Shown here one piece after another: positions 11,304 through 44,748 of a stretch of DNA of 64,000 nucleotides. The notes below the pieces were generated by a model. The model saw nothing but the letters and a program-made list of their open reading frames with translations, had not been told where the DNA came from and did not search any database. The translations under genes and the position numbers were made by a program. This DNA comes from an uncultured Acidobacteriaceae bacterium (GTDB lineage: Bacteria; Acidobacteriota; Terriglobia; Terriglobales; Acidobacteriaceae), in NCBI GenBank assembly GCA_964407505.1, contig CAYOVU010000162.1:27247-91246 (forward strand), written 5' to 3'. How positions within the stretch are numbered: the first letter of the stretch is position 1; every line of letters starts with the position of its first letter.

Positions 11304-11447
11304 GTGTTCGCCGTCGCCCTATGACATATCAGTCCGACGCGGAAGTTATATCACTACATCTCAAGGCAGAGTTAGCGAGTCGATTTGCCGCAAGAGTTGA
11401 AGTGGCCATCGCTCGAGTCTGAAAACCGTTTGCTATGATGCAGCGGC

Positions 11448-12931: not shown

Positions 12932-12964
12932 GCGTAGCTCTTGGGCTACGCAGTTTTGCTTTTG
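12932..12964 (+). terminator. Rho-independent terminator-like hairpin with a T-rich tail
   Basis: GCGTAGC-TCTTGG-GCTACGC followed by AGTTTTGCTTTTG. It lies between the MFS gene and the TonB-dependent receptor start. Confidence 0.35.
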
Positions 12965-13020
12965 TGGTGCTGCCTGTTGTTGCTCGTGATAGGTCAACCA
13001 AGCTTGAAGAGGGAAAAGTC

Positions 13021-22500: not shown

Positions 22501-22929
22501 CTTACGCCAAGCATCAGCGACTCCTTCGATCAGTCCAATACGGACGTCGTCAACCGTGGCGCTTTCTTGCGTCCCGACCAGGTCTCGACGAATTTCTACC
22601 AGGGTCAGTCGCGCGCGCAATACTTCAATCTCGCCGCATTCTCGCCCACTCCTGCCGGTGCTGGACGCTTCGGCAACGCCGGGGTTGGTATCCTGCAGGG
22701 CCCCGGCACAATCGCGGCCAGCCTCGGCCTCGCCAAAGTCTTCCGCGTTACCGAGGAAGTTAGAATGCGCTTCGAGTCCACGTTTACCAACGTGCTCAAC
22801 CATACAAACTTCGCTCCCCCGGCAACGCAGATCGATGTTCCGTCGACCTTTGGCGTTCTGAGCGCTCCGCAGACGGCAGAAAACGCGGGAAATCGCACCG
22901 GTCAACTCGCCTTGCGAATCGAATTCTAG
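19564..22929 (+). CDS. TonB-dependent receptor with carboxypeptidase-regulatory-like domain
   Basis: GTG start preceded by GGAGGG. Signal peptide ending VSAQ. CarboxypepD_reg-like GVVQDKTQAVVLGATVTIRR...GSFEFLNLKPGTYALS. Ends LRIEF (terminal Phe). Confidence 0.85.
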   Translation: MTKAVVNPRIVHSGIAAAMIVLWLVGSSVPVSAQSTFGSVVGVVQDKTQAVVLGATVTIRRLEDNSTRSTTSDQNGSFEFLNLKPGTYALSAQADGFAEFQVPSADLTSRQTLRIDITLGIKSQSQSVEVADTVAVINTENAMISDSRDNQQITQLPLNNRATTTSPLAALSLSPNVQQDSSGNIALDGASSAMVNFSVDGISTANVRQNGALQDAYPSQEGISAVSVTSFNNSAEFSQVGDVTFTTKSGTSQYHGSLFEYLQNDALDADPYGFNGKSPKHFNTFGGSLGGPLSISHLYNGKDKTFFFFDYEGNRRSTAVAQQFLVPTQAERNGDLTAIDGPVISNINPTATALLTYYPLPNVTGQSNYNYENFQSTPARTDGADLRIDHTINLKQSVYARFSRKNITEDYANPLLPNDSDSVHNRSLLVSHTWALTPRLLNEFRFGFTNVTTSVGFPIEGASALSQLDLAGVNISQHPTTHAFPTFNFSAGTGFTPIGRDKTGVTQSKTIQFTDNLSWTRGKHTLKMGLDARRVRYFDLESFAPVFNSDDFGDYIFQGTFTGNAFGDFLEGTPTSLFFAVSSPDVGGTAWQYGVFGQDEYQVNSHITLNYGLRWQILPGFHEDGGNLANFDQRNNSIVVPDELLAYLQQQNIVPSNLAFQQSFNACNLDNTALPCTNYVTASQAHLPQSLRNVYMRNFQPRVSIAWRPFNDTKTVIRAGFGIFTMTNLGPLSFNNSGNPTSALHTYTNSGTTAVPLIRFPNTAPPTVGVQYGGGGLDQGVDPNYRDPQANQWNLTVERQLGNNDSLRVSYVGMHSYRLSITEDLNQIPASTTPYQATATSPYVDPRAPYHNWFTLYSTFNAGEANYNALQVEENHKMSHGLYFSANYTLAKNLANNQGDTPTAYAGEVNYGIPIANRFDVHSDYGNVEGTRRNRFLLTGLYQLPVGEGRTFLNTGGWRNAVLGGWELTTITLLETGPWLTPSISDSFDQSNTDVVNRGAFLRPDQVSTNFYQGQSRAQYFNLAAFSPTPAGAGRFGNAGVGILQGPGTIAASLGLAKVFRVTEEVRMRFESTFTNVLNHTNFAPPATQIDVPSTFGVLSAPQTAENAGNRTGQLALRIEF

Positions 22930-26796: not shown

Positions 26797-27612
26797 TTAC
26801 TTGTCGAGCCACTCATCAAGGTCTGCCACGCGGTCAAACTCCCAAATTTCTTTGTCCCTTTCGGTTTTCTCAACGTCACTGATGGCGTCTCGTTCGGCAG
26901 CACTCAACACGCCTTTGTCAACTAGCTTGTCAAGCAAAGAACGAAGCCCGACGAGACTGATGGCGACACTATCTTCGATGTTGCTGAATTGGGGTTGGAA
27001 GAAACCGCGAGAAGCTGGCTCATCGTATGCTTTATCAACTAACAACAGATTCATTCGGTACCTGTCATCTTTCTTTGACCAGACCATCTGTCCAAAACGC
27101 ATTTCTCGTGGCGTGTCATTGACGCCTTTTCGCACCACCTGAAAATAAGGCTTCAGTTTTCGAGTTTTGCTTTCCTGTACTTCAGTGAGTTCGACTCTAG
27201 CTTCGATCGTCAATCTACCCTTATTATCGAACTCCTCGCTGTACTTGTAAGGCGTGTATTCGGAACCCGCAATCACCAGTTTTGAAATCTTGATATCTTC
27301 CACTTCGAACAACTCCCACGAAAAAGTTGTTTCGGGCGCGCCTTCACGGTAGCTGTTTGAATGCTGCCCGATTTTCCAACGCCGTTCTTTGCTGGGGTTG
27401 TCAGCATCGGTCTGCACAAATTGCTCGGAGTTGATGAAATCTTCAACGGCGACCGTATCATCGTCGTTCTCGCTCTCAAAACGAACTTGCAATCGGATGA
27501 GTTCTTTACCGGTTGATTGTGATGCGAGAACTTCTCGCTCCAAGAGTTCAGCCGTGATTGGAAGCTCTCCCGCTTTCAACTGAACAAGAGGAAAATTGCT
27601 GGTCGATGCCAT
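26797..27612 (-). CDS. hypothetical protein, 271 aa, acidic, no recognisable motif
   Basis: Clean ORF with AAGGAG upstream. Visibly A/T-richer than neighbours. No TM segment or signal peptide. Confidence 0.6.
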   Translation of the reverse strand: MASTSNFPLVQLKAGELPITAELLEREVLASQSTGKELIRLQVRFESENDDDTVAVEDFINSEQFVQTDADNPSKERRWKIGQHSNSYREGAPETTFSWELFEVEDIKISKLVIAGSEYTPYKYSEEFDNKGRLTIEARVELTEVQESKTRKLKPYFQVVRKGVNDTPREMRFGQMVWSKKDDRYRMNLLLVDKAYDEPASRGFFQPQFSNIEDSVAISLVGLRSLLDKLVDKGVLSAAERDAISDVEKTERDKEIWEFDRVADLDEWLDK

Positions 27613-29529: not shown

Positions 29530-29872
29530 ATTCACCGTTGTCCTTGATCTGACTCCCCGTACCCCGAACATCCATCGCTGTGAATTGCGCCTCGCGCGTG
29601 TGATGTCGATCAACGAAGATCCTCACAACGACCATATCTATATCTATAAATTTATAATCTATATAAGTCGCCATTGCTTGACTTGAGGTTCGGCTCAACT
29701 TTAACTAAGGGTACTCTTCTCAGTTAGTTCCGCTTTTCGTAACAAAGTTCTCAGAATATTCTTAAAAAGTGCTTGACGGATTTCTGCGACGTGTTACCAT
29801 CCGTCGCGAATTAAACCTATTGGTATCCGTCGCCGAGTTCAAGACTCGCAAGACACAGCAGAAGCGCATCCA

Positions 29873-29900
29873 TTGACTTACTAACTAGCTGTAGTAACAT
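29873..29900 (+). promoter_or_regulatory. candidate sigma70-type promoter of the pentapeptide operon
   Basis: TTGACT - 16 nt - TAACAT, about 85 nt upstream of the ATG at 29986, within an A/T-rich divergent intergenic region. Confidence 0.25.
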
Positions 29901-29985
29901 CTCACGGGCCCCGGTACATCCATAGCTATTGCAGAGGCCTCCGTTGCCGCTCTGCGGCATCGCGGAGCCGTTGATAGGCGGCACA

Positions 29986-32439
29986 ATGTCAACCCAGTTT
30001 GGACAGTTCGGGAGAGTTGTCGGGTGCGGGCCCGGCCTTAGGCTCCCGTTGGCTAACCGCTTCTTGTTTCTCATGATTGGCATGGTGGCGCTGGCTTCTA
30101 CGTGCCCTGCCAGAGCCAAGACCGTGCCAGCCTGCGCAGTCAATACCGGCACTGGGCACAACTACGCCGGGCAGGATCTGACCAACCATAACTTTAGCGC
30201 GGATCCCGCCGGATCGCTGATAGGCGCCAACTTCACCGGCGCAAAGCTCAGCGGGGCCATCTTCACCGGCCAGGATCTAACCAATGCGAAATTCCAGGGA
30301 GCCAACCTCGGACCGGCGAAGGGTCCCGTCGACTTCAGCAACGCCACGCTGACAAATACCTGTTTCATCGGCGCAACAATGGATGAAACGGATTTCTCTT
30401 ACGCCGTCATCACCTGCGCCGACTTCACCGAGACATCGCTGATCAAAGCAACGTTCGGGCCGGTCCAGAACATCGTGATGGGGACCGGCTGCCGCACGCG
30501 GTTCAACGGTGCGACGCTGGATGTGCGGCTGATCGGCAACGATTTCAACGGCAAGAGCAACTGGAGCAAGACCGACTTCACCGCGGCCAACTTCCAGAAC
30601 TTGACGCCGACGTCGTTCAGTCTCGTCGGTAAGGACATCACCGGCGCGAAACTGGGCCAGACCAATTTCACCGGCATCGACATGACCGGAGCCAACCTCA
30701 CGAATGTTGACTTCACCCTCACCACCCTGATCAAGGCGAAGCTGGATCGCACGGCGATCAACGGCGCTCATTTTTATAATGCGCAAGCGGGGTCCGCGAC
30801 ATTCATCTGCGCCCAAGCGTTTGGCAATTCAGGCGGACAGAAACTTCCCAATGGCACCTCGTGCCCGACCACGCCGACCTCGATCAATCCAACAACCAAC
30901 ACCAACTTTACCTTCGCGGCGTTGAAGGGCGCGGATTTTACCGGCGCTACCCTGGATCACGCGCAGCTCGTGGCGGCGAACCTGACAAGCGCCCATTTCG
31001 ATGGCGCGAGCCTCGTCCAGGCGTCTTTGCAATCGCAAAACGGACAAACTGGGCCGGCGATCGTACAATTTGCAACCTTCAGTAACGCCAAGCTCAACAA
31101 CGCTCTTGTGTCCGGGGTTGATTTTTCGGGCGCGACCCTGACCAACGCGATTTTCGACAACACGCTTCTTTCCGGCACGCTGTTCGCGAACGCCACGATG
31201 CCGGGCGCTAGTTTTCAGTCTTCGACCTTGCAATCTGTAAATTTCAGCGACGCCATCCTTCAATCGGCGAAATTCAACGACGCGAAGATTCAGGCTCCAT
31301 CAACCGGCCCTGGGTCCGGAGCGAATTTCTCGTGTAGCCAGTTGGGTGGCGCCGACTTTACTAACGCGAGCATCGCCGCCACTAATTTCAGCAACGCCGT
31401 CATGCCTGCGGCAGATGCTTGCTGCAAGGTAGAGGGTGGCGGAGCCCCGTGGTGCGGCAACATCGACGCGACCCAACAAACCTATGGACCGGTAACTTTC
31501 CCGGTCATCAACTCGGGCATTATCGTCACTTGCCCGAACGGCTCAACTGGGCAATGCACCGGAGCGCAATGGCAACTCTCGCCCAACTGGCAGACCACAA
31601 GTTGCAACAAGAACGGCGTATCGCAACAGATGTGGTCCAAGCCGAATTGTGGCGGCAAGCCAACCGACATCGTCAAGTTTAAGGACCCGAATCTAAAAGC
31701 CTGCATCCTCGCGACGCTGCCTGGCCAGACCGAAGTGTATCTAACAACGGCGCAACAGATCAGCCAGGTCAACTGTCCGGGCCGACAGATCGCCGATATA
31801 GGCGGCCTGGAGAATTTCATCTCGCTAACAAAGCTGGACCTGCGATCTAACGCCCTGACGATCTTCACGCTGGCCATCACAGCCGGAGGCAAACCGGCGC
31901 CGTCGCAACTGCAAACCCTGAGTCTGGACAACAACCAGTTGACCACGCTCGACCTGACGGCCCATCCCGCGCTGGTTTCCTTGAGCGTCTCGAATAATCG
32001 ACTCGGCGGCACGATTACCCTAAACGCTAATACATACCTACTGATACTGGACGCTTCGCACAATCGTTTGTCGACGGTCAACCTGCCGATTCAAAGCAAT
32101 CTGAGTTTCGTGGACCTTTCCTACAATCTGTTGACCAACGTCCTCAATCAGTTCTCCCCCAATCTGAATGCTTTGCAGGCGTTGAGCTATCTGGATCTGT
32201 CTCACAATGTCTTGACCACCATCGGTTCGATCCAGACCATCGCGTATGACAACAATTCCGACAGTTCCGCCAATTTGAAATCTTTGTTCCTGGCTTGCAA
32301 TCCGAAATTCCAATGCGGCGATCTGGGTGTCTATGACGGCACCCGTTATCCGGCCGCGTCGTCCAGCCAGTGCTCGGCTTACAACACCGTGACGGGAAAA
32401 TGGACCCCGTTAAGTACGCCGCAGTGCGCGCCCAACTGA
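29986..32439 (+). CDS. exported pentapeptide-repeat / leucine-rich-repeat fusion protein
   Basis: Signal-like RFLFLMIGMVALASTCPARA. About 400 aa of A(D/N)LxX-type pentapeptide repeats (ANFTGAKLSGAIFTGQDLTNAKFQGANLG...). Cys-rich linker. About 7 LRRs (LTKLDLRSNALT, LQTLSLDNNQLTTLDL, LSYLDLSHNVLTTI). Cys-containing C-terminal cap. Confidence 0.8.
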   Translation: MSTQFGQFGRVVGCGPGLRLPLANRFLFLMIGMVALASTCPARAKTVPACAVNTGTGHNYAGQDLTNHNFSADPAGSLIGANFTGAKLSGAIFTGQDLTNAKFQGANLGPAKGPVDFSNATLTNTCFIGATMDETDFSYAVITCADFTETSLIKATFGPVQNIVMGTGCRTRFNGATLDVRLIGNDFNGKSNWSKTDFTAANFQNLTPTSFSLVGKDITGAKLGQTNFTGIDMTGANLTNVDFTLTTLIKAKLDRTAINGAHFYNAQAGSATFICAQAFGNSGGQKLPNGTSCPTTPTSINPTTNTNFTFAALKGADFTGATLDHAQLVAANLTSAHFDGASLVQASLQSQNGQTGPAIVQFATFSNAKLNNALVSGVDFSGATLTNAIFDNTLLSGTLFANATMPGASFQSSTLQSVNFSDAILQSAKFNDAKIQAPSTGPGSGANFSCSQLGGADFTNASIAATNFSNAVMPAADACCKVEGGGAPWCGNIDATQQTYGPVTFPVINSGIIVTCPNGSTGQCTGAQWQLSPNWQTTSCNKNGVSQQMWSKPNCGGKPTDIVKFKDPNLKACILATLPGQTEVYLTTAQQISQVNCPGRQIADIGGLENFISLTKLDLRSNALTIFTLAITAGGKPAPSQLQTLSLDNNQLTTLDLTAHPALVSLSVSNNRLGGTITLNANTYLLILDASHNRLSTVNLPIQSNLSFVDLSYNLLTNVLNQFSPNLNALQALSYLDLSHNVLTTIGSIQTIAYDNNSDSSANLKSLFLACNPKFQCGDLGVYDGTRYPAASSSQCSAYNTVTGKWTPLSTPQCAPN

Positions 32440-32477
32440 ACCATTCACCACGCGTCATTTACGAAGGGAGATTAGTC

Positions 32478-35400
32478 ATGCCGCAATCAAACGCAGGAAT
32501 GCTTCAAACCCATTTTCACGCCGATTTATCGGATGGACACCCTGGTGAGGATTACTGGGTCTCAGTCGCCGGCAAGCGCTATCCGCTGGTGCCGCATACT
32601 CCGGAAACACTCAGCGCCGCCCACGCGCGCTCACCAAGGCTGAAGGCTGGCCGCACTAATTCGGTGCTGACCCATCGCACAGCACAGCCGATTTCGTTGC
32701 CGTCGAATACGGTGATCCGGGTGCATCTGCGGCATACCATGCGCGGCTTCCCCAACGCGAAAAGCGAGACCGGCATCGGCCTCTCCGCGCTGTACATTCC
32801 ACCGTCGGACACCCATCTGTCCGCAATGACCGCTGACTCTATCTTCGACGCGCACCCGATCGACTATGTCTCGACTGCGCAGAATTTCATCTATCACCAC
32901 CCGGAAATCATCAATAAAGATAAAGTGGTCGCCGGCATCGTCGTCGACGAGTTCATGGTGGGCGATCCCAATATCGCCCTGGCAATCAATAACGTCGCGA
33001 CCCTCATGCGCAGCATGGGTCCGGCTACCGAGAGTGGCGGATGGGCCAAACTGGAACCATTCACGCCGCCCGATAATCCCGGCTCCGGCTTCGACGGAAA
33101 GAAAACCTACTACCACCAGACTGTCAGCGAGCAGGTCCAAAGCGCGTCGCTCGCGCCGTTGACGCCGTTGATGATCCGGGTGAAGAACGATGCCCGGTTG
33201 AAAGGCAAACTATGGACGGTCTCGGAGGGCTCGAGCGTGGTCTCCACCACCGCGCAAGCGCCGTCTCCTGCCGCGCGGGCGGCCGAGGCTCCAGATGCCT
33301 GGAACGCCGCTATCGCCAATACCGGCGCCCACGGCCTGACCACGAAGGTCACGATTGCGGACGCGAGCAAGCAGCAAATCCAGATCGATATGGAGAATTC
33401 CTATATCCGCTATCTCTGCGGCTATATCCGGTTCTACGACGCGAACAACAACGTGCTGTCGTTGCCCAATTGGAAAGCCGACGACGCGGGCATCGTGCAT
33501 GACATCGTCGCCGATATCGGCCTGCAGTACGACGAGACACGTTTCCTGGGAATGCTCTCGCCCATGAATAATTTCATGGCCATCCCCTTCGGGCCGCCCG
33601 GCGCGTTGTCTGCAAAGGTCACATTTCCACCGAGCGCCGTGCGTGCCGATGTATTGGGATCGGGCATCGGAACCGGCGCCAATCCTTGGCCGAAGACGCC
33701 CGCTCTTGGTGGTACGCTTACCGGCGTTTTCAACCTCGGCGTGCCCGCCTTTATGCTGGGCTTCGGCACGGCGGCACAGTCCTATAAGCCGCTTTACGAC
33801 ATCATCGAGGAGCTTACAGCCACCAAGGGCTTCATTGCCGCGGCGATTGCTGCTGGTCTTGGGTTCCTGGGCTATGTCATCGGTTCGTCCGCAGTCGATC
33901 AGAAGATGAACTGGAGCGGTTTCACCACTATGGTGGGCTTCCTGTTTAACAGGCTCTGCCTCAAAGGGCTGTTGTATGTCGAATCGATCGTCGCGGCCGA
34001 AGAAGTGGCCGACGAAATCCCATTCGCCGGCTGGCTCATGCTGGCGATCAACATCTGCACCGGCGTCGCGCAAATGGCCGAAACCATCATCGAGGTCGCG
34101 ACCTCGGACTGGAATATCACCAACAGTATCGCGACGACCATCACCACTCGTGTAACGGTCCATCCGGACCCGCGCAGCAAGTCTTTCCCGCAGGGGCCAG
34201 CCGGGACTCCGCGCAGTCTTGTGGTCAAGATGATCTATCAGGATCAGGCCCGTCCCACCGTGCAGCAAACGCTGCCGATCCCGGAAGGATCCACTGCAAC
34301 CACATACACCATCGCGTTCGCCAAAAACACGCTGGGCGGCAACGTGAAGCTAGAGGCGGATTTCTATGTCGGCACATGGCTCGCCGGTAAAGCCACCACC
34401 GGTGTGCAGCCCAATGACCGGCTCCACGTCGACGAAGTCACGATGTATCTGGTGGAGTTCCCCGTCCCGCTGACTGCGGACTCCAAATATACTCACGCCC
34501 GCATCCTGACTTACCAGAACAATGCTTATGCCTGGATGGACACAAAGACTGCGCCGACCGAAACCATCGCCAGCCGGAACGCCAGCCCGACGGGCAATGC
34601 GCTGGGCGACTGGACCGGCCTCGCACTCAGTCAGCGCTCCGGCATGTTGGGCCCGTCCTGGCAGGCCGCAGGCATGGGAATTCCGGACTGCGCCACCGGC
34701 GCTACGGGGCAGCTTTACGCCTTCATGAACTTCAACATCCCCGGAACGCCGATGGCCGGCACGCAGTTCCCAAACTGCGGCTTCGTCGGACAATCCCGGC
34801 TGATCTATGATCCGTATCCGCCGAAGTTCCTCATGGGACCGAACGGCTGGGTGCTGGACCCGAACGGGCATCCGGTTCCCGATCCCAAGGACTCAACGCT
34901 GGGTAACTATTACGTCGATCCGCGCTCGGCTAATCTTCCCTATGATCAGGGCGGCGGCTTCCATCTGCGCCAGATCAAGTTGGACGGCACTACGCCCCTC
35001 AACATGGCCAGCGTCCAACCCAGTTTCGGACGCTTCGCATATTTCCCTGACTCGGTCTGTTTGCATCCCTCCGGTCTAGTGATCGGAGTCAGCGCCTCGT
35101 TCAAGAAGCTACAAATCGTGAAACTGGCGGGAGGTGCGGGCAAGGCAGACACCGACATTGTCCTGGGCGAGATCGGCGCCGGACCGGCCACCGATCCCAC
35201 TCGACCAGGTCTGATGTTCCACCCGGTTGCCGTCGCCTGCGCCTATGACGGAACCATCATCGTGCTGGAAGATACCAAGTTCTCTACCGGCCAGCAGATA
35301 ACCACGATATCCCGGCTGTCGGCCTATGACCTGCAAATGAAACCAGTCAACCGTTTCTTCGACGCGCAGGGTAAGCCCAGTCCATGGCTGTATCTGGCGA

Positions 35401-35747
35401 ATCCAGCGGATAACTACTATCTGGATATGACTACGGTCGGCGACGAGCAGATGACCTATATCTACGTGCTTTATTACACGGGATCGGGAGCTGCGCCGTC
35501 GGACTATAACATGGCAATCTACACCTATGGCAAAACGGCTCCGAAGACGAATCCGCTCGTGACCACAAACCAGATCGCGGCTGCCAGACTTGCCGTCGAC
35601 ATGTGGCATTCCGCCTATACGTTGAATTTCGCCATGGTTACAGACGGCAGCGGAAAGATCGCTGGCCCGAAAAACGCAACGACCGGACCAGCCGGGCGGA
35701 CCGTACCCTCGGTCAGCATGTGGCTGCCGCCCATTCCTGGTAAGTAA
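32478..35747 (+). CDS. large hypothetical protein (1089 aa) with a central hydrophobic helix cluster
   Basis: ATG at 32478 preceded by GGGAG. No signal peptide. Four hydrophobic segments are encoded at about 33708-34112. No family motif recognised. Confidence 0.75.
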   Translation: MPQSNAGMLQTHFHADLSDGHPGEDYWVSVAGKRYPLVPHTPETLSAAHARSPRLKAGRTNSVLTHRTAQPISLPSNTVIRVHLRHTMRGFPNAKSETGIGLSALYIPPSDTHLSAMTADSIFDAHPIDYVSTAQNFIYHHPEIINKDKVVAGIVVDEFMVGDPNIALAINNVATLMRSMGPATESGGWAKLEPFTPPDNPGSGFDGKKTYYHQTVSEQVQSASLAPLTPLMIRVKNDARLKGKLWTVSEGSSVVSTTAQAPSPAARAAEAPDAWNAAIANTGAHGLTTKVTIADASKQQIQIDMENSYIRYLCGYIRFYDANNNVLSLPNWKADDAGIVHDIVADIGLQYDETRFLGMLSPMNNFMAIPFGPPGALSAKVTFPPSAVRADVLGSGIGTGANPWPKTPALGGTLTGVFNLGVPAFMLGFGTAAQSYKPLYDIIEELTATKGFIAAAIAAGLGFLGYVIGSSAVDQKMNWSGFTTMVGFLFNRLCLKGLLYVESIVAAEEVADEIPFAGWLMLAINICTGVAQMAETIIEVATSDWNITNSIATTITTRVTVHPDPRSKSFPQGPAGTPRSLVVKMIYQDQARPTVQQTLPIPEGSTATTYTIAFAKNTLGGNVKLEADFYVGTWLAGKATTGVQPNDRLHVDEVTMYLVEFPVPLTADSKYTHARILTYQNNAYAWMDTKTAPTETIASRNASPTGNALGDWTGLALSQRSGMLGPSWQAAGMGIPDCATGATGQLYAFMNFNIPGTPMAGTQFPNCGFVGQSRLIYDPYPPKFLMGPNGWVLDPNGHPVPDPKDSTLGNYYVDPRSANLPYDQGGGFHLRQIKLDGTTPLNMASVQPSFGRFAYFPDSVCLHPSGLVIGVSASFKKLQIVKLAGGAGKADTDIVLGEIGAGPATDPTRPGLMFHPVAVACAYDGTIIVLEDTKFSTGQQITTISRLSAYDLQMKPVNRFFDAQGKPSPWLYLANPADNYYLDMTTVGDEQMTYIYVLYYTGSGAAPSDYNMAIYTYGKTAPKTNPLVTTNQIAAARLAVDMWHSAYTLNFAMVTDGSGKIAGPKNATTGPAGRTVPSVSMWLPPIPGK

Positions 35748-35800
35748 TTGGCTGATCCGGGCGCTCATTTAGTAGAGACCACATTCGTGGAGGATCTGCG

Positions 35801-37879
35801 ATGAAAGCTGCACATGTCTTCGTGACCGGCGTTGCCTTACTGTTCATTTCGCTTCTGATCCAGGCTCAAGAGCCACCTCAACCGCAGGCGCCCGAGCAGT
35901 TATCGACACCTACTCCGGCAGCGATCGTGGGAGCTGAGTCGCTCTCCTGCGCTTATTGCGACCTTCGCGGGAAGGACCTGGCGGGGAAGAATCTGAAAGA
36001 CGCCAATCTGATCGGCAGCGACCTGCGGGAGGCGAAACTAGCTGGCGCTACGCTGGACGGAGCCATTCTGGTCGAGGCGAATCTGGCGGGTGCGGATCTG
36101 ACTGGCGCCAGCCTAGGCGCGACATCCAAGGGCCCCGCCGACTTGACGCGTGCAAACCTGGATGCAGCCAATTTCAGCCATGCCGTGCTGACCGGCGCCC
36201 AGCTGGTGTTCGCCGACCTCGAAGGAACCGACTTCCAAGGCGCCGACCTGACTGGTGCGGTCCTGGGGCCGCATCCGGACATTGGCACCAGCGGCGGACG
36301 GCGTACTTCGTTTCACGGCACCCGCATGGATCGGCGCTGGGCCGAAGCCGTTGCGGCGGCGGATATGCAAGGGGTGATTTGGAACAAGTCGAAAGCGAAA
36401 CGAAACGCGCCGCTAACTGCTGGAGTCACGTGCGGTGGTTCCAACGTTTCGGGCATCAAGAACCCAGTCTACGTCTCCTCGAGCCAGGGAACCGACAACT
36501 CTAACTGCGGCTCGAGTCCCACCACGGCGTGTAAGTCTTTGGTCTATGCGCTGACCCGCTGCACCTCCGGCAGCTGCAACGTGCTGGCGATGTACGATCA
36601 ATTCGTTCTGCCCGCGACATTGGTATTCGACAGTCGCATCACTCCGGCTGGCGCACAGCTCTACGGCGGCTGCCTCGCCTCGGGGCCGACTGACGGGTTG
36701 ACATCGGAGATTATGGCGCCACCGGGCGGCGCGCCAGCGGTGAGCGTCGCCGGAGTGAAGCCCGTGGTTGTGCAGAATTTCAAGATCCTCGGATCGGCTG
36801 CAACCGCGGGCAAAGGCACACCGGCGGTGACTGCGCAGATCACGCAAACGTCGCAGGTCACCGTCACCAACGGCCTGATCGTTGGAGGCACAGGTGGAAC
36901 TGGCGCCATTGGAAACAGCCAGGGTCCCGGCACAAAGGGCGGATCGGCGAACCAGAAGACCGGAGGAACAAATCCAAGCTGCACGTTGAGCAATGGCGGG
37001 AGTGGCTCCGGCGAGATGAATGTGGATAACCATTACACGAGTTGCAGCTGGCCCTGCACTAGCCCAGGCTGCTGGGGGGTAACTGGAGGTCCTGGAAGTG
37101 TCGGCTCGGGAGGAGCCGGCGGAAAGTGGGGGGAGCCAAAGGGGGTGATGTGCCCGCCTTGGACCCCGAATGACGGCAACGGCGGAGGAGGGGGATCGAA
37201 CGCTCGCTGCGGCACCGGGGGTGTGGCCTCAACCAACATTCAAGGCAGCTTTAATGGAGAAACTTGGATTCCTGGTGTGGGAGGTACAGGGTCAGTCGGC
37301 GGAAACGGCTCTGGCGGCGGCGGTGGCGGTGCGGGCGGAGCCATGTGCGGTAACTGCCTTCTTGTCCCGTGGGGATATTCGGGTTCAAGCGGAGGCGGAG
37401 GCGGCGCTGGCGGCTGCGGTGGACAGCCGGCAACGGGTGGGCAGCAGGGTGGTGCGTCTTTTGTGCTCGTGGCTACCGGCGGATCTGTACTTACGCTAAA
37501 TCAGTCTCGCGTAGTTGCCGGGCGTAGCGGCGATGGCGGTCCGGGTGGCGTCGGTGGCAATGGCGGTGCGGCTGGCAGTCATGCCACCGGTTCGGGTAGC
37601 AGCGGCTATGGATACCATGGCGGCAAAGGAGGCGACGGTGCTGATGGAGGAATCGGGGGTGGTGGGGGCGGTGGCTCCGGCGGCAATGCGGGACCGTCCG
37701 CGGCGGTTGCGTTGGTCAGCGGCGCGAAAGTCGACGGAACTGGCATTGTTTATTACAAGGGCAGTTCGGGCAGTTTCGGCGGCGGCGGAGCTGGTGGCAC
37801 GAGCGTCGTCTGCCCCTCAGGGCCTAGTGGGAATTCAGGCGTGCTCGGCAGCGTGGCTGAAACCTTGAGCTATCCTTAG
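35801..37879 (+). CDS. exported pentapeptide-repeat protein with beta-helix-cap-like segment and glycine-rich C-terminal half
   Basis: SD GGAGGA. Signal peptide VALLFISLLIQAQE. Pentapeptide repeats (ANLIGSDLREAKLAGATLDGAILVEANLAGADLTGASLG). VYVSSSQGTDNSNCGSSPTTACKSLVYAL resembles the N-cap of right-handed beta-helix (DUF1565-like) proteins. The last ~330 aa are dominated by GGxGG runs. Confidence 0.8.
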   Translation: MKAAHVFVTGVALLFISLLIQAQEPPQPQAPEQLSTPTPAAIVGAESLSCAYCDLRGKDLAGKNLKDANLIGSDLREAKLAGATLDGAILVEANLAGADLTGASLGATSKGPADLTRANLDAANFSHAVLTGAQLVFADLEGTDFQGADLTGAVLGPHPDIGTSGGRRTSFHGTRMDRRWAEAVAAADMQGVIWNKSKAKRNAPLTAGVTCGGSNVSGIKNPVYVSSSQGTDNSNCGSSPTTACKSLVYALTRCTSGSCNVLAMYDQFVLPATLVFDSRITPAGAQLYGGCLASGPTDGLTSEIMAPPGGAPAVSVAGVKPVVVQNFKILGSAATAGKGTPAVTAQITQTSQVTVTNGLIVGGTGGTGAIGNSQGPGTKGGSANQKTGGTNPSCTLSNGGSGSGEMNVDNHYTSCSWPCTSPGCWGVTGGPGSVGSGGAGGKWGEPKGVMCPPWTPNDGNGGGGGSNARCGTGGVASTNIQGSFNGETWIPGVGGTGSVGGNGSGGGGGGAGGAMCGNCLLVPWGYSGSSGGGGGAGGCGGQPATGGQQGGASFVLVATGGSVLTLNQSRVVAGRSGDGGPGGVGGNGGAAGSHATGSGSSGYGYHGGKGGDGADGGIGGGGGGGSGGNAGPSAAVALVSGAKVDGTGIVYYKGSSGSFGGGGAGGTSVVCPSGPSGNSGVLGSVAETLSYP

Positions 37880-40879: not shown

Positions 40880-41100
40880 TTTGTCTTGACAACGAAAGGC
40901 GTTTGGGGCTAAACCTTTCGTGCAGAGTGGAATAGTACAGAAGTACTAGCTGAAAGGCCAGTAAAAGAACGATATTCTTAATCGCCTTCGCATCTCAGGC
41001 GATTTTTGGCAGGAATGGCGTACGGCTGGGGAAATCTGATCTTGCTATGTCAAAAACCCGTCTCTGTGGACGGGACCAACTTCTAGCGTGGGGGAACTCC

Positions 41101-44100
41101 ATGATGAGATTCATTCGCTGGTCGCTCGCCTTGTGTCTTCTGCTGTTCGTGTCAGCATCAGCATTTTCACAAAGTAGAAACACCGGCGAGATTCGCGGCA
41201 CGGTGTCGGCTGGGGGAGCCGTGGTGCCAGGTGTAACCGTCACGCTCACCAATAGAGACACGGGGGAAACGAAGGATTTCGTCACCAACAAAGACGGCAT
41301 CTACGACACGGTTTCGACGCCGGCGGGAAACTACACCATCAGCTTTACGGCCAAGGGATTCAAGAAGCTGGTGCGCGGTCCTATCCCGCTGCAGGTGGAC
41401 GTGATCACTGAGGACGCCGCTCTGGAAGTTGGCTCGATAACGGAAACGGTGACGGTGGAAGCCGAAGGCGCGCCGCTTGTCGAGACCGAAACCGGCCAGC
41501 AGGGTTCCATTATGGAATTCAAAACCATTTCAGAACTGCCCCAGTCGGGGGGCGGGATCACCGGCGCAGACTGGGCTTCTTTCAACATCTATCTGCCGGG
41601 CGCTGGAGGCACTACGAACGGGCGGACCTCGCAGGCCGGGGGTGCCTGGAATGCCGGCGACGCGGTTTCCATCAACGGCAACCTGCCGAACTTCGGCAAC
41701 TTCCTTCAGGACGGGGCCAGCACCTTACTGCCGGCGAGCTACAACAACGACGATGAGATCTTCGAGAGCATTCAGGAGGTTCAGATCAACACCTCTTCCT
41801 TCTCGGCGCAATACGGCATGGGCGGCGTCATGTTCAACCAGATCAGCAAGAGTGGAACCAACGGTTGGCATGGGTCCGGTTATGAGTTTTTCTCGCAGAG
41901 CTTTCTAAATGCCAACACTTATTTCAACAATCAGCAGCCTAAGTTGATTACAAACGCCCTGAACCCCACGGGCCCGGAAATTCCTAACCCTGCGGCGCAA
42001 GTGCCGTATTTGCGGTACGACCAGTTTGGCGCCTCCATCGGTGGGCCTATTATCAAGAACAAACTCTTTTTCTTCTTCGACATAGACAGGATCGTCAATA
42101 ACACCGTGGTGAACAACGGGATTAACGACTTTGCCACCGTTCCTACGGCCGCTATGGAGAAGGGTGATTTTACCGGCATGTACCCCATTTATGACCCGCT
42201 CACCACAACCGGGTCGGGGGCGACATTGAGCCGGACGCAGTTCCCCAATAACATGATCCCGGCGAACCGGATCGACCCCGTGGCGGCGGCCATTATGGCT
42301 TCCAAGTATGGCTGGCCCACCGCAGCGCAAGGGACAGGAACATGCGCGGCCCCTCCGGACCAGAACGACTGCACAAGTAACTACTACAACGCGCCTAAAA
42401 CTCCCGCCCCGGTTCACCGATATTTTGGGCGGTTGGACTACGACCTGAGCGCGAAGCACCGCATCATGTTCTCAATCAGCCAGAAGGATAACCCCGGGGT
42501 CGACAACGGCCTGTTCCCCTGCCCGCTGAATTGCGGTAGCGGGGACGTGGACGGTTGGAACACGCAGGTCACCGAAACGTGGACGATCAGTCCGACGATC
42601 GTCAACGAAATCCGGATGGGTTATACCAAGCAAGGCAACTGGTTCCAATCCCAGTCCCTCGGGTTGAACCCCGCAACGGCATTCGGCCTGCAAGGTACCC
42701 ATTTTAACCAATTCCCCTTCATTGGCAACTCAAGCATTTATGGTCAATTCGGCGGCCCGGATAACGTAAGCGTCTTGTCGCCCGCCACGGACGCCATTTA
42801 CATCGAGAACTCGTTTGACCCCTCCGAAATGGTGACGCTAGTCAAGGGCAAGCACGTTCTGCATTTTGGGATTGAGGTGTTGATGGCCGAGGGCAACACC
42901 ACGGCCTGGGGCTCCAACAGCGCCGGCAACTACGGTTTCACCGGACAATACACCGCAGGCACAACCTGCACGCCGGCAAACGGAACAACGCCAGCAACCT
43001 GTACGCTGAATACCGGAACCTCGGGCTCGGGCTTCGCGGATTTCCTGCTCGGCAACATCCAGTCCTGGTCCGCGCAGAACGAGAACGCGACCGGAATGCG
43101 GCTGAAGAGCCCGCAGGCCTTCGCTCAGGACGACTGGAAGATCAAGCCCAATCTCACCCTCAACCTCGGCTTGCGCTGGGAGGGGAACACGGGCATGAGC
43201 GAGCAATCGAATCGCCTTGGCGATTTCGACCAGAATCTCATCAATACCGTCGGCCCCTTCGCAGGCACCCCGGGCTCGATATGGATTGCCCCTCAGGATA
43301 ACCGAACGACCTTGCAGAAGCCGGTTTGGAACATCTTCCTCCCTCGGGTAGGCTTCGCCTGGTCGGCCAGGGACAACACCGTCATACGAGGCGGTATAGG
43401 GTTCTTTGCCTATAACTACAGCATGGATCTCTATGGTGGTGAGGGCGGTGGGCAAATGGGTTTCGGCAATACCTCTCAGGGCAACATCAGCGACCCTCTC
43501 AGTGCCGCCGGGGACACGGGCTGGATTTCCGGCACCGGCAACACTACCCCGCTCTATTTAAGCTCGAGCGCTGCGATGATGGCCAAAGCCCTGCCTTACG
43601 TTCAGGGCTCGAAGAACCCGGCGTCCTACACCACCAATCCCGTCTTTAGTCCACCTTACGAACCCTATAACATCAGGCCGGGAGAGATCTGGGAATGGAA
43701 CCTCTCCATTGAGCGCCAGTTCGCCAGGGACTTTGCGGTGTCGGCCGCTTACGTCGGCAGTCACGGGGCGAATCTGCAATACGTCACCGACCTGAACCAA
43801 ATCACCAACCCGGCCCTGCTGGCCTCGAACGATATATCGGCCTGCAACGGGGCAACACCCGCAACACCCACATCAGCATCCGCGAACGCCCCCATCCAAC
43901 CTTGCGCGCGCCCCTATCCGGCGTTTGGAAGCCTTTCCGGCTCAAACTTCAACAGCATCTCCAACTACAATTCGTTGCAACTCGACGTGCGGAAGCGTTA
44001 TACCCGAGGGCTGACCTTCGATGTCAACTATGCCTGGTCGCATTTCCTGGATGACCAGGACTCGGCCGGATGGGGCAGCACGGCCGGGGCTCAGGCTTGG

Positions 44101-44748
44101 CAAATCGGAAACAATCCCTCCGCTAACTACGGCAACTCGAACTTCGACATCCCGCAAGCGCTCAAAGGGACTGCGGTATACGAACTGCCGTTTGGCATAG
44201 GCAAGCCCTATATGAACCAGAATGCTATCACTGACGCTGTGCTTGGCGGGTGGAGCCTCTCGGGGACGCTTATCTACCAGAGCGGCACTCCGTTCACGGT
44301 GCAGGACAAGGGTGATAACGACTATTCGCAGGCCGGCACTGCGTATGCCAACCCCATTCCAGGTGTGAACCCCTTTTCAGGCACCTGCACCATTAACGGC
44401 GTGGCTGTACCCACACACACAGTGACCTGCTGGTTCAACCCGGCAGCCTTTGAGACCCCAGCCGAGCAGGGCAACGGGGCGTTCGGGTATGGACGCAGAA
44501 ACACGCTCTTCGGGCCAAAACTGTCTGATATTAACCTGTCTCTGGCGAAGACCTGGCATTACAAGGAACGAGCCGGGCTCACACTTCGCGCAGACTTCGT
44601 TAACGTCATGAACCATCCGAGCTTCTCACTACCGGACACTGGCGGACCTAACGGCAATCCTGACGTGAGTAGTTCGGGCGCGGCCACTATCACGCAACTC
44701 GCGAACGGGCCACGTACGATCCAACTGGGCGCGCGGCTATCCTTCTAA
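41101..44748 (+). CDS. TonB-dependent receptor with carboxypeptidase-regulatory-like domain
   Basis: Signal peptide MMRFIRWSLALCLLLFVSASAFSQ. CarboxypepD_reg-like GTVSAGGAVVPGVTVTLTNRDTGETKDFVTNKDGIYDTVSTPAGNYTISF. Ends ARLSF. Confidence 0.85.
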   Translation: MMRFIRWSLALCLLLFVSASAFSQSRNTGEIRGTVSAGGAVVPGVTVTLTNRDTGETKDFVTNKDGIYDTVSTPAGNYTISFTAKGFKKLVRGPIPLQVDVITEDAALEVGSITETVTVEAEGAPLVETETGQQGSIMEFKTISELPQSGGGITGADWASFNIYLPGAGGTTNGRTSQAGGAWNAGDAVSINGNLPNFGNFLQDGASTLLPASYNNDDEIFESIQEVQINTSSFSAQYGMGGVMFNQISKSGTNGWHGSGYEFFSQSFLNANTYFNNQQPKLITNALNPTGPEIPNPAAQVPYLRYDQFGASIGGPIIKNKLFFFFDIDRIVNNTVVNNGINDFATVPTAAMEKGDFTGMYPIYDPLTTTGSGATLSRTQFPNNMIPANRIDPVAAAIMASKYGWPTAAQGTGTCAAPPDQNDCTSNYYNAPKTPAPVHRYFGRLDYDLSAKHRIMFSISQKDNPGVDNGLFPCPLNCGSGDVDGWNTQVTETWTISPTIVNEIRMGYTKQGNWFQSQSLGLNPATAFGLQGTHFNQFPFIGNSSIYGQFGGPDNVSVLSPATDAIYIENSFDPSEMVTLVKGKHVLHFGIEVLMAEGNTTAWGSNSAGNYGFTGQYTAGTTCTPANGTTPATCTLNTGTSGSGFADFLLGNIQSWSAQNENATGMRLKSPQAFAQDDWKIKPNLTLNLGLRWEGNTGMSEQSNRLGDFDQNLINTVGPFAGTPGSIWIAPQDNRTTLQKPVWNIFLPRVGFAWSARDNTVIRGGIGFFAYNYSMDLYGGEGGGQMGFGNTSQGNISDPLSAAGDTGWISGTGNTTPLYLSSSAAMMAKALPYVQGSKNPASYTTNPVFSPPYEPYNIRPGEIWEWNLSIERQFARDFAVSAAYVGSHGANLQYVTDLNQITNPALLASNDISACNGATPATPTSASANAPIQPCARPYPAFGSLSGSNFNSISNYNSLQLDVRKRYTRGLTFDVNYAWSHFLDDQDSAGWGSTAGAQAWQIGNNPSANYGNSNFDIPQALKGTAVYELPFGIGKPYMNQNAITDAVLGGWSLSGTLIYQSGTPFTVQDKGDNDYSQAGTAYANPIPGVNPFSGTCTINGVAVPTHTVTCWFNPAAFETPAEQGNGAFGYGRRNTLFGPKLSDINLSLAKTWHYKERAGLTLRADFVNVMNHPSFSLPDTGGPNGNPDVSSSGAATITQLANGPRTIQLGARLSF

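What the first reader, a model, noticed from the sequence alone, without database searches (positions are those of the whole stretch)
29986..37879. Three-gene operon of unknown function: two exported pentapeptide-repeat proteins bracketing a 1089-aa membrane-interacting protein
The genes are co-directional, with gaps of only 38 and 53 nt, and each has its own SD. The two outer proteins both have Sec-type signal peptides and long pentapeptide-repeat (right-handed quadrilateral beta-helix) regions. These are fused to different partners: LRRs in one, and a beta-helix cap plus Gly-rich tail in the other. The central protein has no signal peptide and no motif I can assign. I know of no characterised system with this composition. 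Upstream is an A/T-rich region with several TTGAC-type hexamers. Candidate roles include a surface or secreted effector, an adhesion apparatus, or a novel toxin or defence module.
Basis: partly seen in the sequence, partly recalled or inferred. Interest (0 to 1): 0.75.

Follow-up and report, generated by a model that had tools for sequence, protein, structure and literature searches.

The report
Conserved pentapeptide-repeat/membrane-protein gene trio
Three neighbouring genes in this soil acidobacterium (two exported rod-shaped repeat proteins around a 1089-residue protein from a large, unnamed family) stay together in at least four bacterial phyla, so they are very probably one uncharacterised cell-envelope machine.

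Summary
The three + strand genes sit at the stated coordinates:
- A: 29986-32439, 817 aa.
- B: 32478-35747, 1089 aa.
- C: 35801-37879, 692 aa.

The gaps are 38 and 53 nt. A and C have Sec-type signal peptides and pentapeptide repeats (PRP). A also has LRRs, and C has a Gly-rich tail. B has no signal peptide and no Pfam, NCBIfam, PADLOC or PHROG match.

A, B and C homologues are adjacent in every one of the 36 related loci with enough flank, across Acidobacteriota, Alpha- and Gammaproteobacteria, Bacteroidota and Chloroflexota. The order is A-B-C or A-C-B, the surrounding genes are unrelated, and there is no fourth conserved gene.

B belongs to a large unannotated superfamily: 1103 representatives at 50% identity. 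Its predicted layout, in order:
- a new-fold N-domain with three invariant histidines;
- a beta-sandwich;
- a hydrophobic helical module;
- a second beta-sandwich;
- an NHL-type propeller.

B-like proteins were next to a PRP gene in 8 of 8 distant loci and fused to PRPs in two proteins.

Best model, which is inferred: B is an inner-membrane anchor whose periplasmic propeller half docks the two disulfide-rich PRP rods. The biochemical function is unknown, and a toxin-like reading is not excluded.

The parts
29620..29985 (+). A/T-rich intergenic leader upstream of gene A, with sigma-70-like hexamer pairs at 29773-29800 and 29873-29900
   Evidence: Sequence read. The promoter scan found these sites but no excess over shuffles, so promoter function is inferred only.
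29986..32439 (+). Gene A, 817 aa. In order: Sec-type signal peptide (aa 1-44), long pentapeptide-repeat beta-helix (about aa 55-478), Cys-rich linker with a CPNG cap motif (aa 479-600), leucine-rich repeats with a Cys-capped C-terminus (aa 600-817).
   Evidence: Pfam Pentapeptide 4.2e-45 and LRR_4 1.1e-9. Hydropathy. Orthologues in 30+ loci carry signal peptides. 15 conserved Cys.
32478..35747 (+). Gene B, 1089 aa: founding member here of a large unannotated superfamily, with no signal peptide
   Evidence: No hit in Pfam, NCBIfam, PADLOC or PHROGs. 55 clusters at 90% identity. 1103 representatives in the exhaustive search. AF2 pLDDT 79.6.
32478..33692 (+). B N-terminal region (aa 1-405): an alpha/beta domain (aa 1-250) with superfamily-invariant H40, T65-H66, H141 and W189, followed by a beta-sandwich (aa 285-400)
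   Evidence: AF2 models. No PDB fold match below E 0.04. No Pfam match even at E 10. Invariant residues.
33693..34112 (+). B hydrophobic helical module (aa 406-545): helices H1 (409-432), H2 (450-472), amphipathic H3 (479-505) and H4 (515-541)
   Evidence: Hydropathy. AF2 predicts helices with pLDDT below 50. Three charge-free 19-mers in 28 of 47 family members. Charge distribution.
34113..35747 (+). B C-terminal half (aa 546-1089): beta-sandwich (546-700), then a six-bladed NHL-type beta-propeller (about 700-1089) with the conserved C-terminal strand EPSVSxWxP
   Evidence: AF2 pLDDT 85-95. Foldseek matches to TRIM2/TRIM3/Brat NHL domains and BtuG, E 2.5e-6 to 1e-3, target TM about 0.5. This is the point where PRPs are fused in P0151 and P0154.
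35801..37879 (+). Gene C, 692 aa. In order: Sec-type signal peptide (aa 1-22), CxxC motif plus short pentapeptide-repeat beta-helix (about aa 50-160), Cys-rich middle region, Gly-rich C-terminal domain (period-3 Gly).
   Evidence: Pfam Pentapeptide 9.7e-23. Hydropathy, 23% Gly and 18 Cys. 11 conserved Cys. Gly autocorrelation. Homologues of the C-terminal domain are nearly all C orthologues.

Best explanation
The three genes encode one hetero-oligomeric cell-envelope complex, maintained and transferred as a self-contained cassette.

Shown:
- The trio is co-inherited across phyla, with no other conserved neighbour.
- B-like proteins throughout a very large superfamily are encoded next to, or fused at their C-terminus to, a pentapeptide-repeat (PRP) protein.
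- In the distant subfamilies examined, the export status of B and of its PRP partner match.
- A and C are Sec-signal-bearing and rich in conserved cysteines.
- B has no signal peptide, but it has a hydrophobic helical module that is more transmembrane-like in this subfamily than elsewhere.

Inferred:
- The PRP beta-helix is a direct binding partner of the C-terminal (beta-sandwich and NHL propeller) half of B.
- In the trio subfamily, B is a polytopic inner-membrane protein with H1, H2 and H4 spanning, N-in and C-out. This would leave the three-histidine N-domain in the cytoplasm and present the propeller half in the periplasm.
- There the two rigid, disulfide-stapled PRP rods dock. A would be roughly 100 A long if about 420 residues form about 21 coils.
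- The rods carry the distal binding modules, namely A's LRR and C's Gly-rich domain, toward the peptidoglycan or outer membrane.
- The three invariant histidines suggest a metal site, so the N-domain is the likely catalytic or signalling end.

The substrate or ligand and the physiological output are not known.
For: Synteny:
- A-B-C is found in Methylocystis bryophila and Thioalkalivibrio paradoxus with different flanks.
- 34 genome loci from four or more phyla all have A and C beside B wherever there is enough flank. The order is A-B-C or A-C-B, and A-B-C-C' in Pseudomonas agarici and Lysobacter.
- Clustering of all flanking ORFs finds only the B family and the PRP family recurring.

Deep B-PRP link:
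- 8 of 8 distant B-like loci have an adjacent PRP gene.
- Two proteins fuse a B-like region to C-terminal PRPs: P0154 and P0151.

Matched export:
- Tat or Sec lipoprotein B-likes pair with lipoprotein PRPs (L005, L041, L045).
- Signal-less B-likes pair with signal-less PRPs (L006, L042, L044, L046, L047).

The trio family is the only mixed case. Its B carries three charge-free TM-length helices in 28 of 47 members, against a mode of one elsewhere.

A and C are extracytoplasmic:
- Signal peptides are present in 30+ orthologues.
- 15 and 11 conserved Cys respectively.
- No T9SS C-terminal domain in the Bacteroidota copies.

B architecture comes from AF2 and Foldseek.

Precedent for an exported, Cys-pair-flanked PRP acting in the envelope: Caulobacter YjbI (PMC12864828).
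Against: - No direct evidence of physical interaction or of B's topology.
- The positive-inside analysis is ambiguous and, if anything, does not favour N-in: K+R is low before H1 and after H4 and higher in loop 1 and H3.
- In the Tat-lipoprotein relatives the homologous N-domain is exported. N-in therefore puts that domain in the opposite compartment in this subfamily, which is unusual.
- The hydrophobic helices are only moderately hydrophobic (Kyte-Doolittle 1.4-1.9), and the helix count depends on the threshold.
- AF2 confidence is below 50 in this module.
- The metal site is inferred from conservation alone.
- The structure of C's C-terminal half was not predicted.
Confidence: 0.4

Rival explanations
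1. B is a membrane-inserting toxin or effector. Its layout resembles AB toxins: an N-terminal activity domain, a hydrophobic helical translocation or pore module, and a beta-sandwich plus propeller for receptor binding. It would leave the cell by an unidentified route. The periplasmic PRP proteins A and C would be immunity, decoy or chaperone factors, matching the pattern of signal-less periplasm-acting effectors paired with Sec-exported immunity proteins.
For: - Signal-less B sits beside Sec-exported partners.
- The helical module contains one hydrophobic helix that is universally charge-free even in exported, lipid-anchored relatives. This fits a buried insertion helix rather than a constitutive TM segment.
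- Some relatives are fused to, or adjacent to, BPI/LBP/CETP-type lipid-binding domains: P0147 and L042.
- TULIP proteins accompany toxin genes elsewhere (PMC7020563, title and abstract only).
- The distribution across phyla is patchy, as expected for horizontal transfer.
- A Tc toxin locus lies 9 kb away in this window, but it is not linked to the trio in other genomes.
Against: - No homology to any toxin family in Pfam, NCBIfam or PDB.
- No secretion system, lysis gene or small immunity-like ORF is conserved nearby.
- Partners of 700-800 aa with multiple domains would be atypical immunity proteins.
- Fusion of toxin and immunity in one chain (P0151, P0154) would be odd.
- The hosts are mostly free-living, non-pathogenic bacteria.
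Confidence: 0.2
2. The cassette is a cell-surface adhesion or binding apparatus. A and C would be displayed outside the outer membrane as adhesins through their LRR and Gly-rich beta-solenoid, with B as their anchor or exporter.
For: - LRR and Gly-rich or beta-helical modules are typical ligand-binding parts of adhesins.
- A and C are exported and disulfide-rich.
- The characterised secreted PRP YjbI sits at the outer-membrane surface.
Against: - A and C have no autotransporter or TPS barrel, no T1SS signals and no sortase or PEP-CTERM signals.
- The Bacteroidota orthologues have no T9SS C-terminal domain.
- B has helices rather than a beta-barrel, so it cannot be an outer-membrane exporter.
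- Relatives exist in which both B and the PRP partner lack signal peptides and are presumably cytoplasmic, for example in Nocardia.
Confidence: 0.15
3. The cassette is an anti-phage or other conflict (abortive-infection) module. PRP, LRR and propeller repeats would sense an invader, and B's hydrophobic helices would disrupt the membrane.
For: - It is a self-contained cassette, sporadically distributed, in variable genomic contexts.
- Repeat sensors combined with a membrane-active module is a common defence logic.
- Distant signal-less relatives lie near AbiEii-, DpdA- and Imm53-like genes. These Pfam hits are weak or single observations.
- There is a weak PRP-region similarity to the Hailong effector HalA.
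Against: - No PADLOC hit for A, B or C.
- No relatives on viral contigs.
- In the trio the putative sensors are Sec-exported, disulfide-rich periplasmic proteins, which is the wrong compartment for sensing intracellular phage components.
- The flanks in the window, Methylocystis and Thioalkalivibrio are housekeeping genes rather than defence islands.
- The HalA scores (15-21 bits) are far below the cutoff of 250.
Confidence: 0.08
4. The three genes are functionally unrelated neighbours, with ordinary stand-alone pentapeptide-repeat proteins happening to flank a hypothetical protein.
For: Pentapeptide-repeat proteins are abundant, and many are orphan genes. No experiment links the three genes.
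Against: - Adjacency is kept in 36 loci across at least four phyla despite different flanks and a permuted order.
- Only these families recur around B.
- Fusions of B-like proteins with PRPs exist.
- 8 of 8 distant contexts also pair a B-like gene with a PRP gene.
Confidence: 0.02

Closest known systems
YjbI-type secreted pentapeptide-repeat protein of Caulobacter crescentus (CCNA_01968/PerA; PMC12864828)
   Same: Both are Sec-exported pentapeptide-repeat quadrilateral beta-helices with conserved cysteine pairs at the ends of the helix, acting in the Gram-negative envelope. C starts its mature part with CxxC directly before the repeats, and A with a conserved Cys. JGI labels many C orthologues 'uncharacterized protein YjbI with pentapeptide repeats'. 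That is a generic COG label.
   Different: As the paper describes it, YjbI is a quadrilateral beta-helix with a charged C-terminal tail that enters the outer membrane. The paper describes no LRR, no Gly-rich domain and no B-like partner. A and C are 3-4 times larger by my recollection of YjbI's size, have multiple domains, and are always encoded with B. Orthology to YjbI was not tested.
Pentapeptide-repeat modules inside envelope machines or membrane proteins: Legionella DotG/IcmE (T4BSS core) and cyanobacterial HglK (from my own knowledge)
   Same: In both cases a PRP beta-helix serves as a rigid structural element associated with a membrane-embedded or periplasm-spanning assembly.
   Different: The NCBIfam DotG model scores only 27.9 bits against a cutoff of 750. 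No type IV secretion genes are nearby. In those systems the PRP and the membrane anchor are one polypeptide; here they are separate genes, except in the fused relatives P0151 and P0154.
NHL-repeat six-bladed beta-propellers (TRIM2/TRIM3/Brat NHL domains; Bacteroides surface lipoprotein BtuG)
   Same: The predicted fold of B residues about 700-1089 matches these (Foldseek E 2.5e-6 to 1e-3, target TM 0.44-0.54). Faint Pfam NHL hits occur in distant B-like proteins.
   Different: Sequence identity is 8-12%. Pfam NHL is not detected in the window's B. The other 700 residues of B have no counterpart in these proteins.
Qnr/MfpA/AlbG cytoplasmic pentapeptide-repeat DNA mimics
   Same: They share the pentapeptide-repeat fold family (Pfam PF00805).
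   Different: Scores are far below the family cutoffs, for example Qnr 48.5 against 240 and MfpA 35.7 against 360. A and C have signal peptides and many conserved cysteines, so they are extracytoplasmic and cannot act on gyrase.
Modular AB-type toxins and their accessory proteins, such as botulinum neurotoxin with OrfX/P47 TULIP proteins, where BoNT/A binds the pentapeptide-repeat luminal domain of SV2 (from my own knowledge plus the title and abstract of PMC7020563)
   Same: The resemblance is thematic only. There is an order of activity domain, hydrophobic helical module and beta-rich binding domains in one roughly 1100-aa chain. Some relatives associate with BPI/TULIP-like lipid-binding proteins. 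There is also a protein-PRP partnership.
   Different: No sequence or fold homology was detected. There is no HExxH motif. In this system the PRP is encoded by the producer itself.

Membership tests
Pentapeptide repeat proteins (Pfam PF00805 clan) | Tandem A(D/N)LXX pentapeptides scoring above the Pfam gathering threshold | tested here: met
   A scores 151.3 bits and C 79.8 bits against a cutoff of 20.2. B has no match.
Leucine-rich repeat proteins | LRR motifs above the Pfam threshold | tested here: met
   A matches LRR_4 at 38.7 bits (cutoff 27) over aa 641-673. LRR_8 and LRR_1 score below their cutoffs. The Lxx(L)xLxxN pattern is conserved over aa 600-770.
Qnr/MfpA quinolone-resistance PRPs | Score above the NCBIfam equivalog cutoffs; cytoplasmic, about 200 aa, no signal peptide | tested here: not met
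   Best scores are 48.5 against 240 (Qnr) and 35.7 against 360 (MfpA). A and C carry signal peptides and are 692-817 aa.
T3SS effectors PipB/PipB2/SopA; T4BSS DotG/IcmE | Score above the NCBIfam cutoffs; a secretion-system locus in the genomic context | tested here: not met
   Scores are 73.6 against 354, 67 against 274, 32 against 326 and 27.9 against 750. No secretion-system genes appear in the flanks.
YjbI-type secreted PRP | Secretion signal, two Cys pairs flanking the beta-helix, and a charged C-terminal tail needed for outer-membrane insertion (PMC12864828) | tested here: inconclusive
   The signal peptide and an N-terminal Cys pair are present in C, and conserved Cys flank the repeats in A. 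Instead of a charged C-terminal tail there are large LRR or Gly-rich domains. Direct sequence comparison with YjbI was not done.
NHL-repeat beta-propeller | Six-bladed propeller fold with the NHL sequence repeat | tested here: inconclusive
   A fold match was found (Foldseek E 2.5e-6, target TM 0.50). Pfam NHL is not detected in the window's B and is only faint (E about 0.009) in distant relatives.
Known anti-phage defence systems (PADLOC-DB v2) | A match to any defence-protein HMM | tested here: not met
   No hits for A, B or C at E 0.1 or better. No relatives on viral contigs.
Tc (ABC) toxin components | Pfam VRP1/ABC_toxin_N (TcA), or SpvB/TcdB_mid/RHS (TcB/TcC) | tested here: not met
   A, B and C have none of these domains. 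True Tc genes do exist in the window at 46990-63702, but they are absent next to the trio in other genomes.
T9SS cargo (Bacteroidota surface or secreted proteins) | A C-terminal Por secretion-tail domain (type A or B CTD) | tested here: not met
   Chitinophaga and Niastella A and C orthologues show no CTD model among the NCBIfam hits.
Polytopic inner-membrane protein (proposed class for B) | Experimentally or algorithmically supported transmembrane helices with a defined topology | tested here: inconclusive
   Three charge-free 19-residue hydrophobic windows (H1, H2, H4) occur in 28 of 47 family members. Hydrophobicity is moderate, the positive-inside signal is ambiguous and AF2 confidence is low. 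No DeepTMHMM or TMHMM was available.

The most novel reading that the evidence does not exclude
The trio would be one branch of a previously unrecognised, very widespread two-component principle. A roughly 1100-residue 'three-histidine domain, hydrophobic helices, NHL propeller' protein would work obligatorily with a pentapeptide-repeat beta-helix partner. The superfamily has at least 1100 clusters at 50% identity and no Pfam, NCBIfam or PDB relative for the first 700 or so residues. It would exist in cytoplasmic, lipoprotein and, as here, trans-inner-membrane versions. This would give pentapeptide-repeat proteins, whose function is unknown for the vast majority, a general role as dedicated protein-docking rods of a new membrane-active metalloprotein machine.
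Probability: 0.45. Interest if true: 0.8.

Novelty: categorically new. Interest (0 to 1): 0.68.

Why it matters
Pentapeptide-repeat proteins number in the tens of thousands. A 2021 review counted nearly 39,000 (PMC8145042 abstract). Beyond the gyrase-protecting Qnr/MfpA group and a few cases such as YjbI, their functions are unknown.

This locus shows a strict, phylum-spanning genomic marriage between PRPs and a large protein superfamily that has no name, no domain model and, for its N-terminal half, no known fold. The link is supported by Rosetta-stone fusions.

That gives a concrete, testable hypothesis for what many PRPs do: they bind this partner. It also defines a new protein family of more than a thousand sequence clusters for structural and functional study. 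Culturable hosts include Chitinophaga, Niastella, Lysobacter, Pseudomonas agarici, Methylocystis bryophila and Roseobacter-group strains, which makes genetics feasible.

If B turns out to be a membrane-active metalloprotein, the system may matter for envelope biology or for interbacterial antagonism in soils and peat.

Tried and rejected
- Family libraries for B (Pfam, NCBIfam, PADLOC, PHROGs): no hits.
- Pfam on 23 N-domain homologues at E up to 10: only scattered chance hits, plus TAT_signal in P0054.
- A profile of 48 B homologues against PDB sequences at E up to 10: nothing.
- Foldseek of the full B model against PDB: only the propeller matches. The low-TM hit to a T4 baseplate chain (5iv5_BJ, TM 0.13-0.14) was rejected as meaningless.
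- Foldseek of the full B model against viral BFVD: only propeller-type or low-TM matches.
- Foldseek of the separately modelled N-domain against PDB: best E 0.048, to small beta-sandwich modules. The pMMO/AMO PmoB hits had probability 0.06 or less and were rejected.
- C's C-terminal half against PDB sequences: nothing.
- Model coordinates are not exposed, so clustering of the invariant histidines and pairing of the cysteines could not be checked.
- A crude TM count with a Kyte-Doolittle threshold did not separate the exported and signal-less classes. A charge-free-window count did separate the trio family.
- Positive-inside analysis: ambiguous.
- Search for a fourth conserved gene: none.
- Viral contigs: no relatives.
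- tRNA or Rfam elements, as signs of an integrated element or riboswitch: none.
- Terminators and promoters: at chance level.
- Literature searches for the gene combination: no paper on this system.
- BLASTP of A's cap region against distant PRP partners: only weak similarity, E 5e-4 in a single comparison, around the (V/I)CPN-x-x-G-x-C motif. This suggests, but does not prove, that A is the ancestral partner type.


Full report
**1. The observation**

The window holds three co-directional + strand ORFs at the stated coordinates:
- A: 29986-32439, 817 aa.
- B: 32478-35747, 1089 aa.
- C: 35801-37879, 692 aa.

The gaps are 38 and 53 nt. B and C have strong Shine-Dalgarno sequences (AAGGGAG and GGAGGA), while that of A is weak.

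Pfam finds multiple pentapeptide-repeat (PRP) models in A plus LRR_4 above threshold. In C it finds PRP models at the N-terminus only. C is 23% glycine, with a period-3 Gly pattern in its C-terminal half.

A and C start with hydrophobic Sec-type leaders ending in AXA motifs (ARA and IQA). This was judged from hydropathy and by eye, since no SignalP tool was available.

B has no N-terminal signal and no hit in Pfam, NCBIfam, PADLOC or PHROGs. It has a hydrophobic stretch at residues 409-541.

The A/T-rich upstream region with TTGAC hexamers exists. Promoter-like sites there are no more frequent than in shuffled sequence. No tRNA or Rfam element is present.

**2. The trio is a conserved unit**

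B has 55 cluster-level homologues of about 1090 aa, all 'hypothetical'. In Methylocystis bryophila (Alphaproteobacteria) and Thioalkalivibrio paradoxus (Gammaproteobacteria), the same three genes occur in the same order with entirely different neighbours.

A scan of one genome per species returned 34 loci. They come from:
- Acidobacteriota. Acidobacteriaceae and Ca. Sulfotelmatobacter MAGs are 96-97% identical to the window. Bryobacteraceae, Blastocatellia and Pyrinomonadaceae are also represented.
- Alphaproteobacteria: Azospirillum and several Roseobacter-group genera.
- Gammaproteobacteria: Pseudomonas agarici, Lysobacter, Thiodictyon, Methylococcales and Marinicellaceae.
- Bacteroidota: Chitinophaga, Niastella and Saprospiraceae.
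- Chloroflexota: Caldilineaceae.

tblastn finds A and C homologues beside B in every locus with enough flank. The order is A-B-C in most loci. It is A-C-B in Bacteroidota and in Tritonibacter and Phycobacter, and A-B-C-C' in P. agarici and Lysobacter.

Clustering all flanking ORFs shows that only the B family (35 loci) and the PRP family (34 loci, 67 proteins) recur. There is no fourth conserved gene.

That condition is clearly not met.

**3. What B is**

AlphaFold2 with 48 homologues gives a confident model (pLDDT 79.6). Its parts, in order:
- An alpha/beta N-domain, aa 1-250.
- A beta-sandwich, aa 285-400.
- A six-helix hydrophobic module, aa 409-542, with pLDDT below 50.
- A second beta-sandwich, aa 546-700.
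- A beta-propeller, aa 700-1089.

Foldseek matches the propeller to NHL domains (TRIM2/TRIM3, Brat) and to BtuG-type surface lipoproteins, with E 2.5e-6 and target TM about 0.5. The separately modelled N-terminal 405 residues have no PDB match better than E 0.048 and no Pfam similarity even at E 10. A profile search against PDB sequences is empty.

An exhaustive profile search finds 1103 representative proteins (50% clusters) at E 1e-3 or better, and 543 at 1e-30. B therefore belongs to a very large family that has no domain model. All members that carry names are 'hypothetical', including copies in Nocardia and Spirosoma.

Residues conserved in at least 89% of a 116-sequence superfamily alignment include H40, T65-H66, H141, W189, N307 and R311. 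Three near-invariant histidines in a well-predicted domain suggest a metal site.

**4. The B-PRP link is ancient**

Eight distant B-like loci were examined: P0054, P0055, P0077, P0105, P0116, P0089, P0100 and P0125. All have a PRP gene directly adjacent.

Two long proteins, P0154 (2398 aa) and P0151 (1834 aa), carry the B-like region followed by pentapeptide repeats in the same chain. Fusions of this kind argue for direct physical cooperation and place the PRP next to the propeller end of B.

Some relatives add a BPI/LBP/CETP-type lipid-binding module. It is fused in P0147 and is a separate gene in L042. This hints at membrane or lipid chemistry.

**5. Compartment logic**

Roughly a quarter of the distant representatives have Tat or Sec signals, usually with a lipobox. 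Pfam TAT_signal also recognises the signal in P0054.

The three exported cases examined (L005, L041, L045) each have a PRP partner with a lipoprotein signal peptide. The five signal-less cases (L006, L042, L044, L046, L047) each have a signal-less partner. One of these partners carries a GNAT domain, and one system is from Nocardia.

The trio family is the only mixed arrangement. B is signal-less in about 50 clusters. A and C have signal peptides in 30+ orthologues and 15 and 11 conserved cysteines respectively. The Bacteroidota copies have no T9SS C-terminal domain, so A and C probably stay in the periplasm.

In the trio family, the hydrophobic module of B contains three charge-free TM-length windows (H1, H2, H4) in 28 of 47 members. 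Elsewhere in the superfamily the mode is one.

The simplest reconciliation is that trio-type B is an inner-membrane protein with its C-terminal half in the periplasm, where it meets A and C.

Three caveats apply:
- The positive-inside signal is ambiguous.
- The helices are only moderately hydrophobic.
- N-in would place the N-domain in the opposite compartment from its Tat-exported homologues.

**6. Mechanism proposed (confidence 0.4)**

I propose an envelope complex in which B anchors the assembly in the inner membrane. In this model:
- The periplasmic beta-sandwich and propeller of B bind the PRP beta-helices.
- A and C act as rigid, disulfide-stapled rods.
- A's LRR and C's Gly-rich domain are carried outward as the distal binding modules.
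- The three-histidine N-domain is the catalytic or signalling end.

Rival explanations, with my estimates:
- A membrane-inserting toxin with periplasmic immunity or chaperone PRPs: 0.2.
- A surface adhesin apparatus: 0.15. No outer-membrane export signals were found.
- An anti-phage module: 0.08. There are no PADLOC hits and no viral relatives, and the putative sensors sit in the wrong compartment.
- Unrelated neighbours: 0.02. This is effectively refuted.

**7. Comparison with known systems**

A and C are bona fide PRP proteins, and A is also an LRR protein. They fail the cutoffs for Qnr, MfpA, PipB, PipB2, SopA and DotG by wide margins.

The nearest characterised analogue of an exported PRP is Caulobacter YjbI. 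It is a secreted, Cys-pair-flanked beta-helix at the outer membrane that modulates envelope stress signalling (PMC12864828). The paper describes no B-like partner and none of the extra domains.

For B, only the propeller has a known fold class. No paper describing this gene combination was found.

**8. Verdict**

The feature is real and non-random, and it is an uncharacterised system. The interesting part is not just the trio. It is the discovery that a large, unnamed superfamily is obligatorily partnered with pentapeptide-repeat proteins.

The function remains unknown, and the topology and interaction model is inferred. Interest is 0.68. I file the composition as categorically new relative to described systems. 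It may later be assigned to a broader class, such as envelope sensor or toxin.

Noticed in passing
window 46990-54885 (+) and 55300-63702 (+): Two giant ORFs form a Tc (ABC) toxin-complex locus. The 2631-aa protein has SpvB (8.6e-110), TcdB_toxin_midN/midC and FG-GAP domains, so it looks like a TcB/TcC-type protein. The 2800-aa protein has VRP1, ABC_toxin_N (6.6e-42) and a neuraminidase-like domain, so it looks TcA-like. The locus lies about 9 kb downstream of the trio and is not linked to the trio in other genomes.
   Followed up: partly
window 377-3604 (-): A non-ribosomal peptide synthetase module (Condensation, AMP-binding, PP-binding) at the left edge of the window. It is possibly part of a larger NRPS cluster that runs off the window.
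   Followed up: no
window 12964-16413 (+), 19564-22929 (+), 41047-44748 (+): Three paralogous large outer-membrane proteins with CarboxypepD_reg plus OMP_b-brl_4 (TonB-dependent-receptor-like) architecture lie within 32 kb. From my own knowledge, this architecture is common in Acidobacteriota.
   Followed up: no
window 26797-27612 (-): A 271-aa ORF has a sub-threshold match to the eukaryotic CARD (caspase recruitment) domain: E 6.8e-4, 20 bits against a cutoff of 23.9. This may be chance or a bacterial Death-like fold domain.
   Followed up: no
P0116, P0118, P0119, P0127, P0130, P0147, P0154 (distant B-like proteins; e.g. L044 4812-8921): Long variants (1300-2400 aa) carry multiple copies of an unannotated repeat of about 45 residues, pattern 'LDxGxxSxxLxxAFxxxGxxLSxxAxV', inserted within or after the propeller. 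The same motif appears in the PRP partner in L044. No Pfam model matches it.
   Followed up: no
L042 11211-15158; L044 2820-4622; L046 3695-5233; L047 3802-4392: In signal-less branches of the superfamily, the PRP partner begins with a conserved 'F(L/I)GKW...' N-terminal domain that looks beta-trefoil- or fascin-like by eye. It can end in a GNAT acetyltransferase (L042). A separate BPI/LBP/CETP-like gene sits between the B-like gene and the PRP gene. This looks like a cytoplasmic three-part version of the system.
   Followed up: partly
L041 4558-7923 and L006 6078-10043 / 10001-12676: Some distant loci appear to hold two tandem B-like paralogues, or a split B-like gene, next to the PRP gene. 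L041 has an upstream 1121-aa gene with no Pfam hit. L006 gives several partial B hits.
   Followed up: no
L010 (NZ_VCCH02000018.1): The record titled 'Mycobacterium sp. KBS0706' carries a full trio whose B is 68% identical to the acidobacterial B and whose A and C have Sec signals. This is unexpected for a mycobacterium and suggests a misnamed or contaminated assembly.
   Followed up: no
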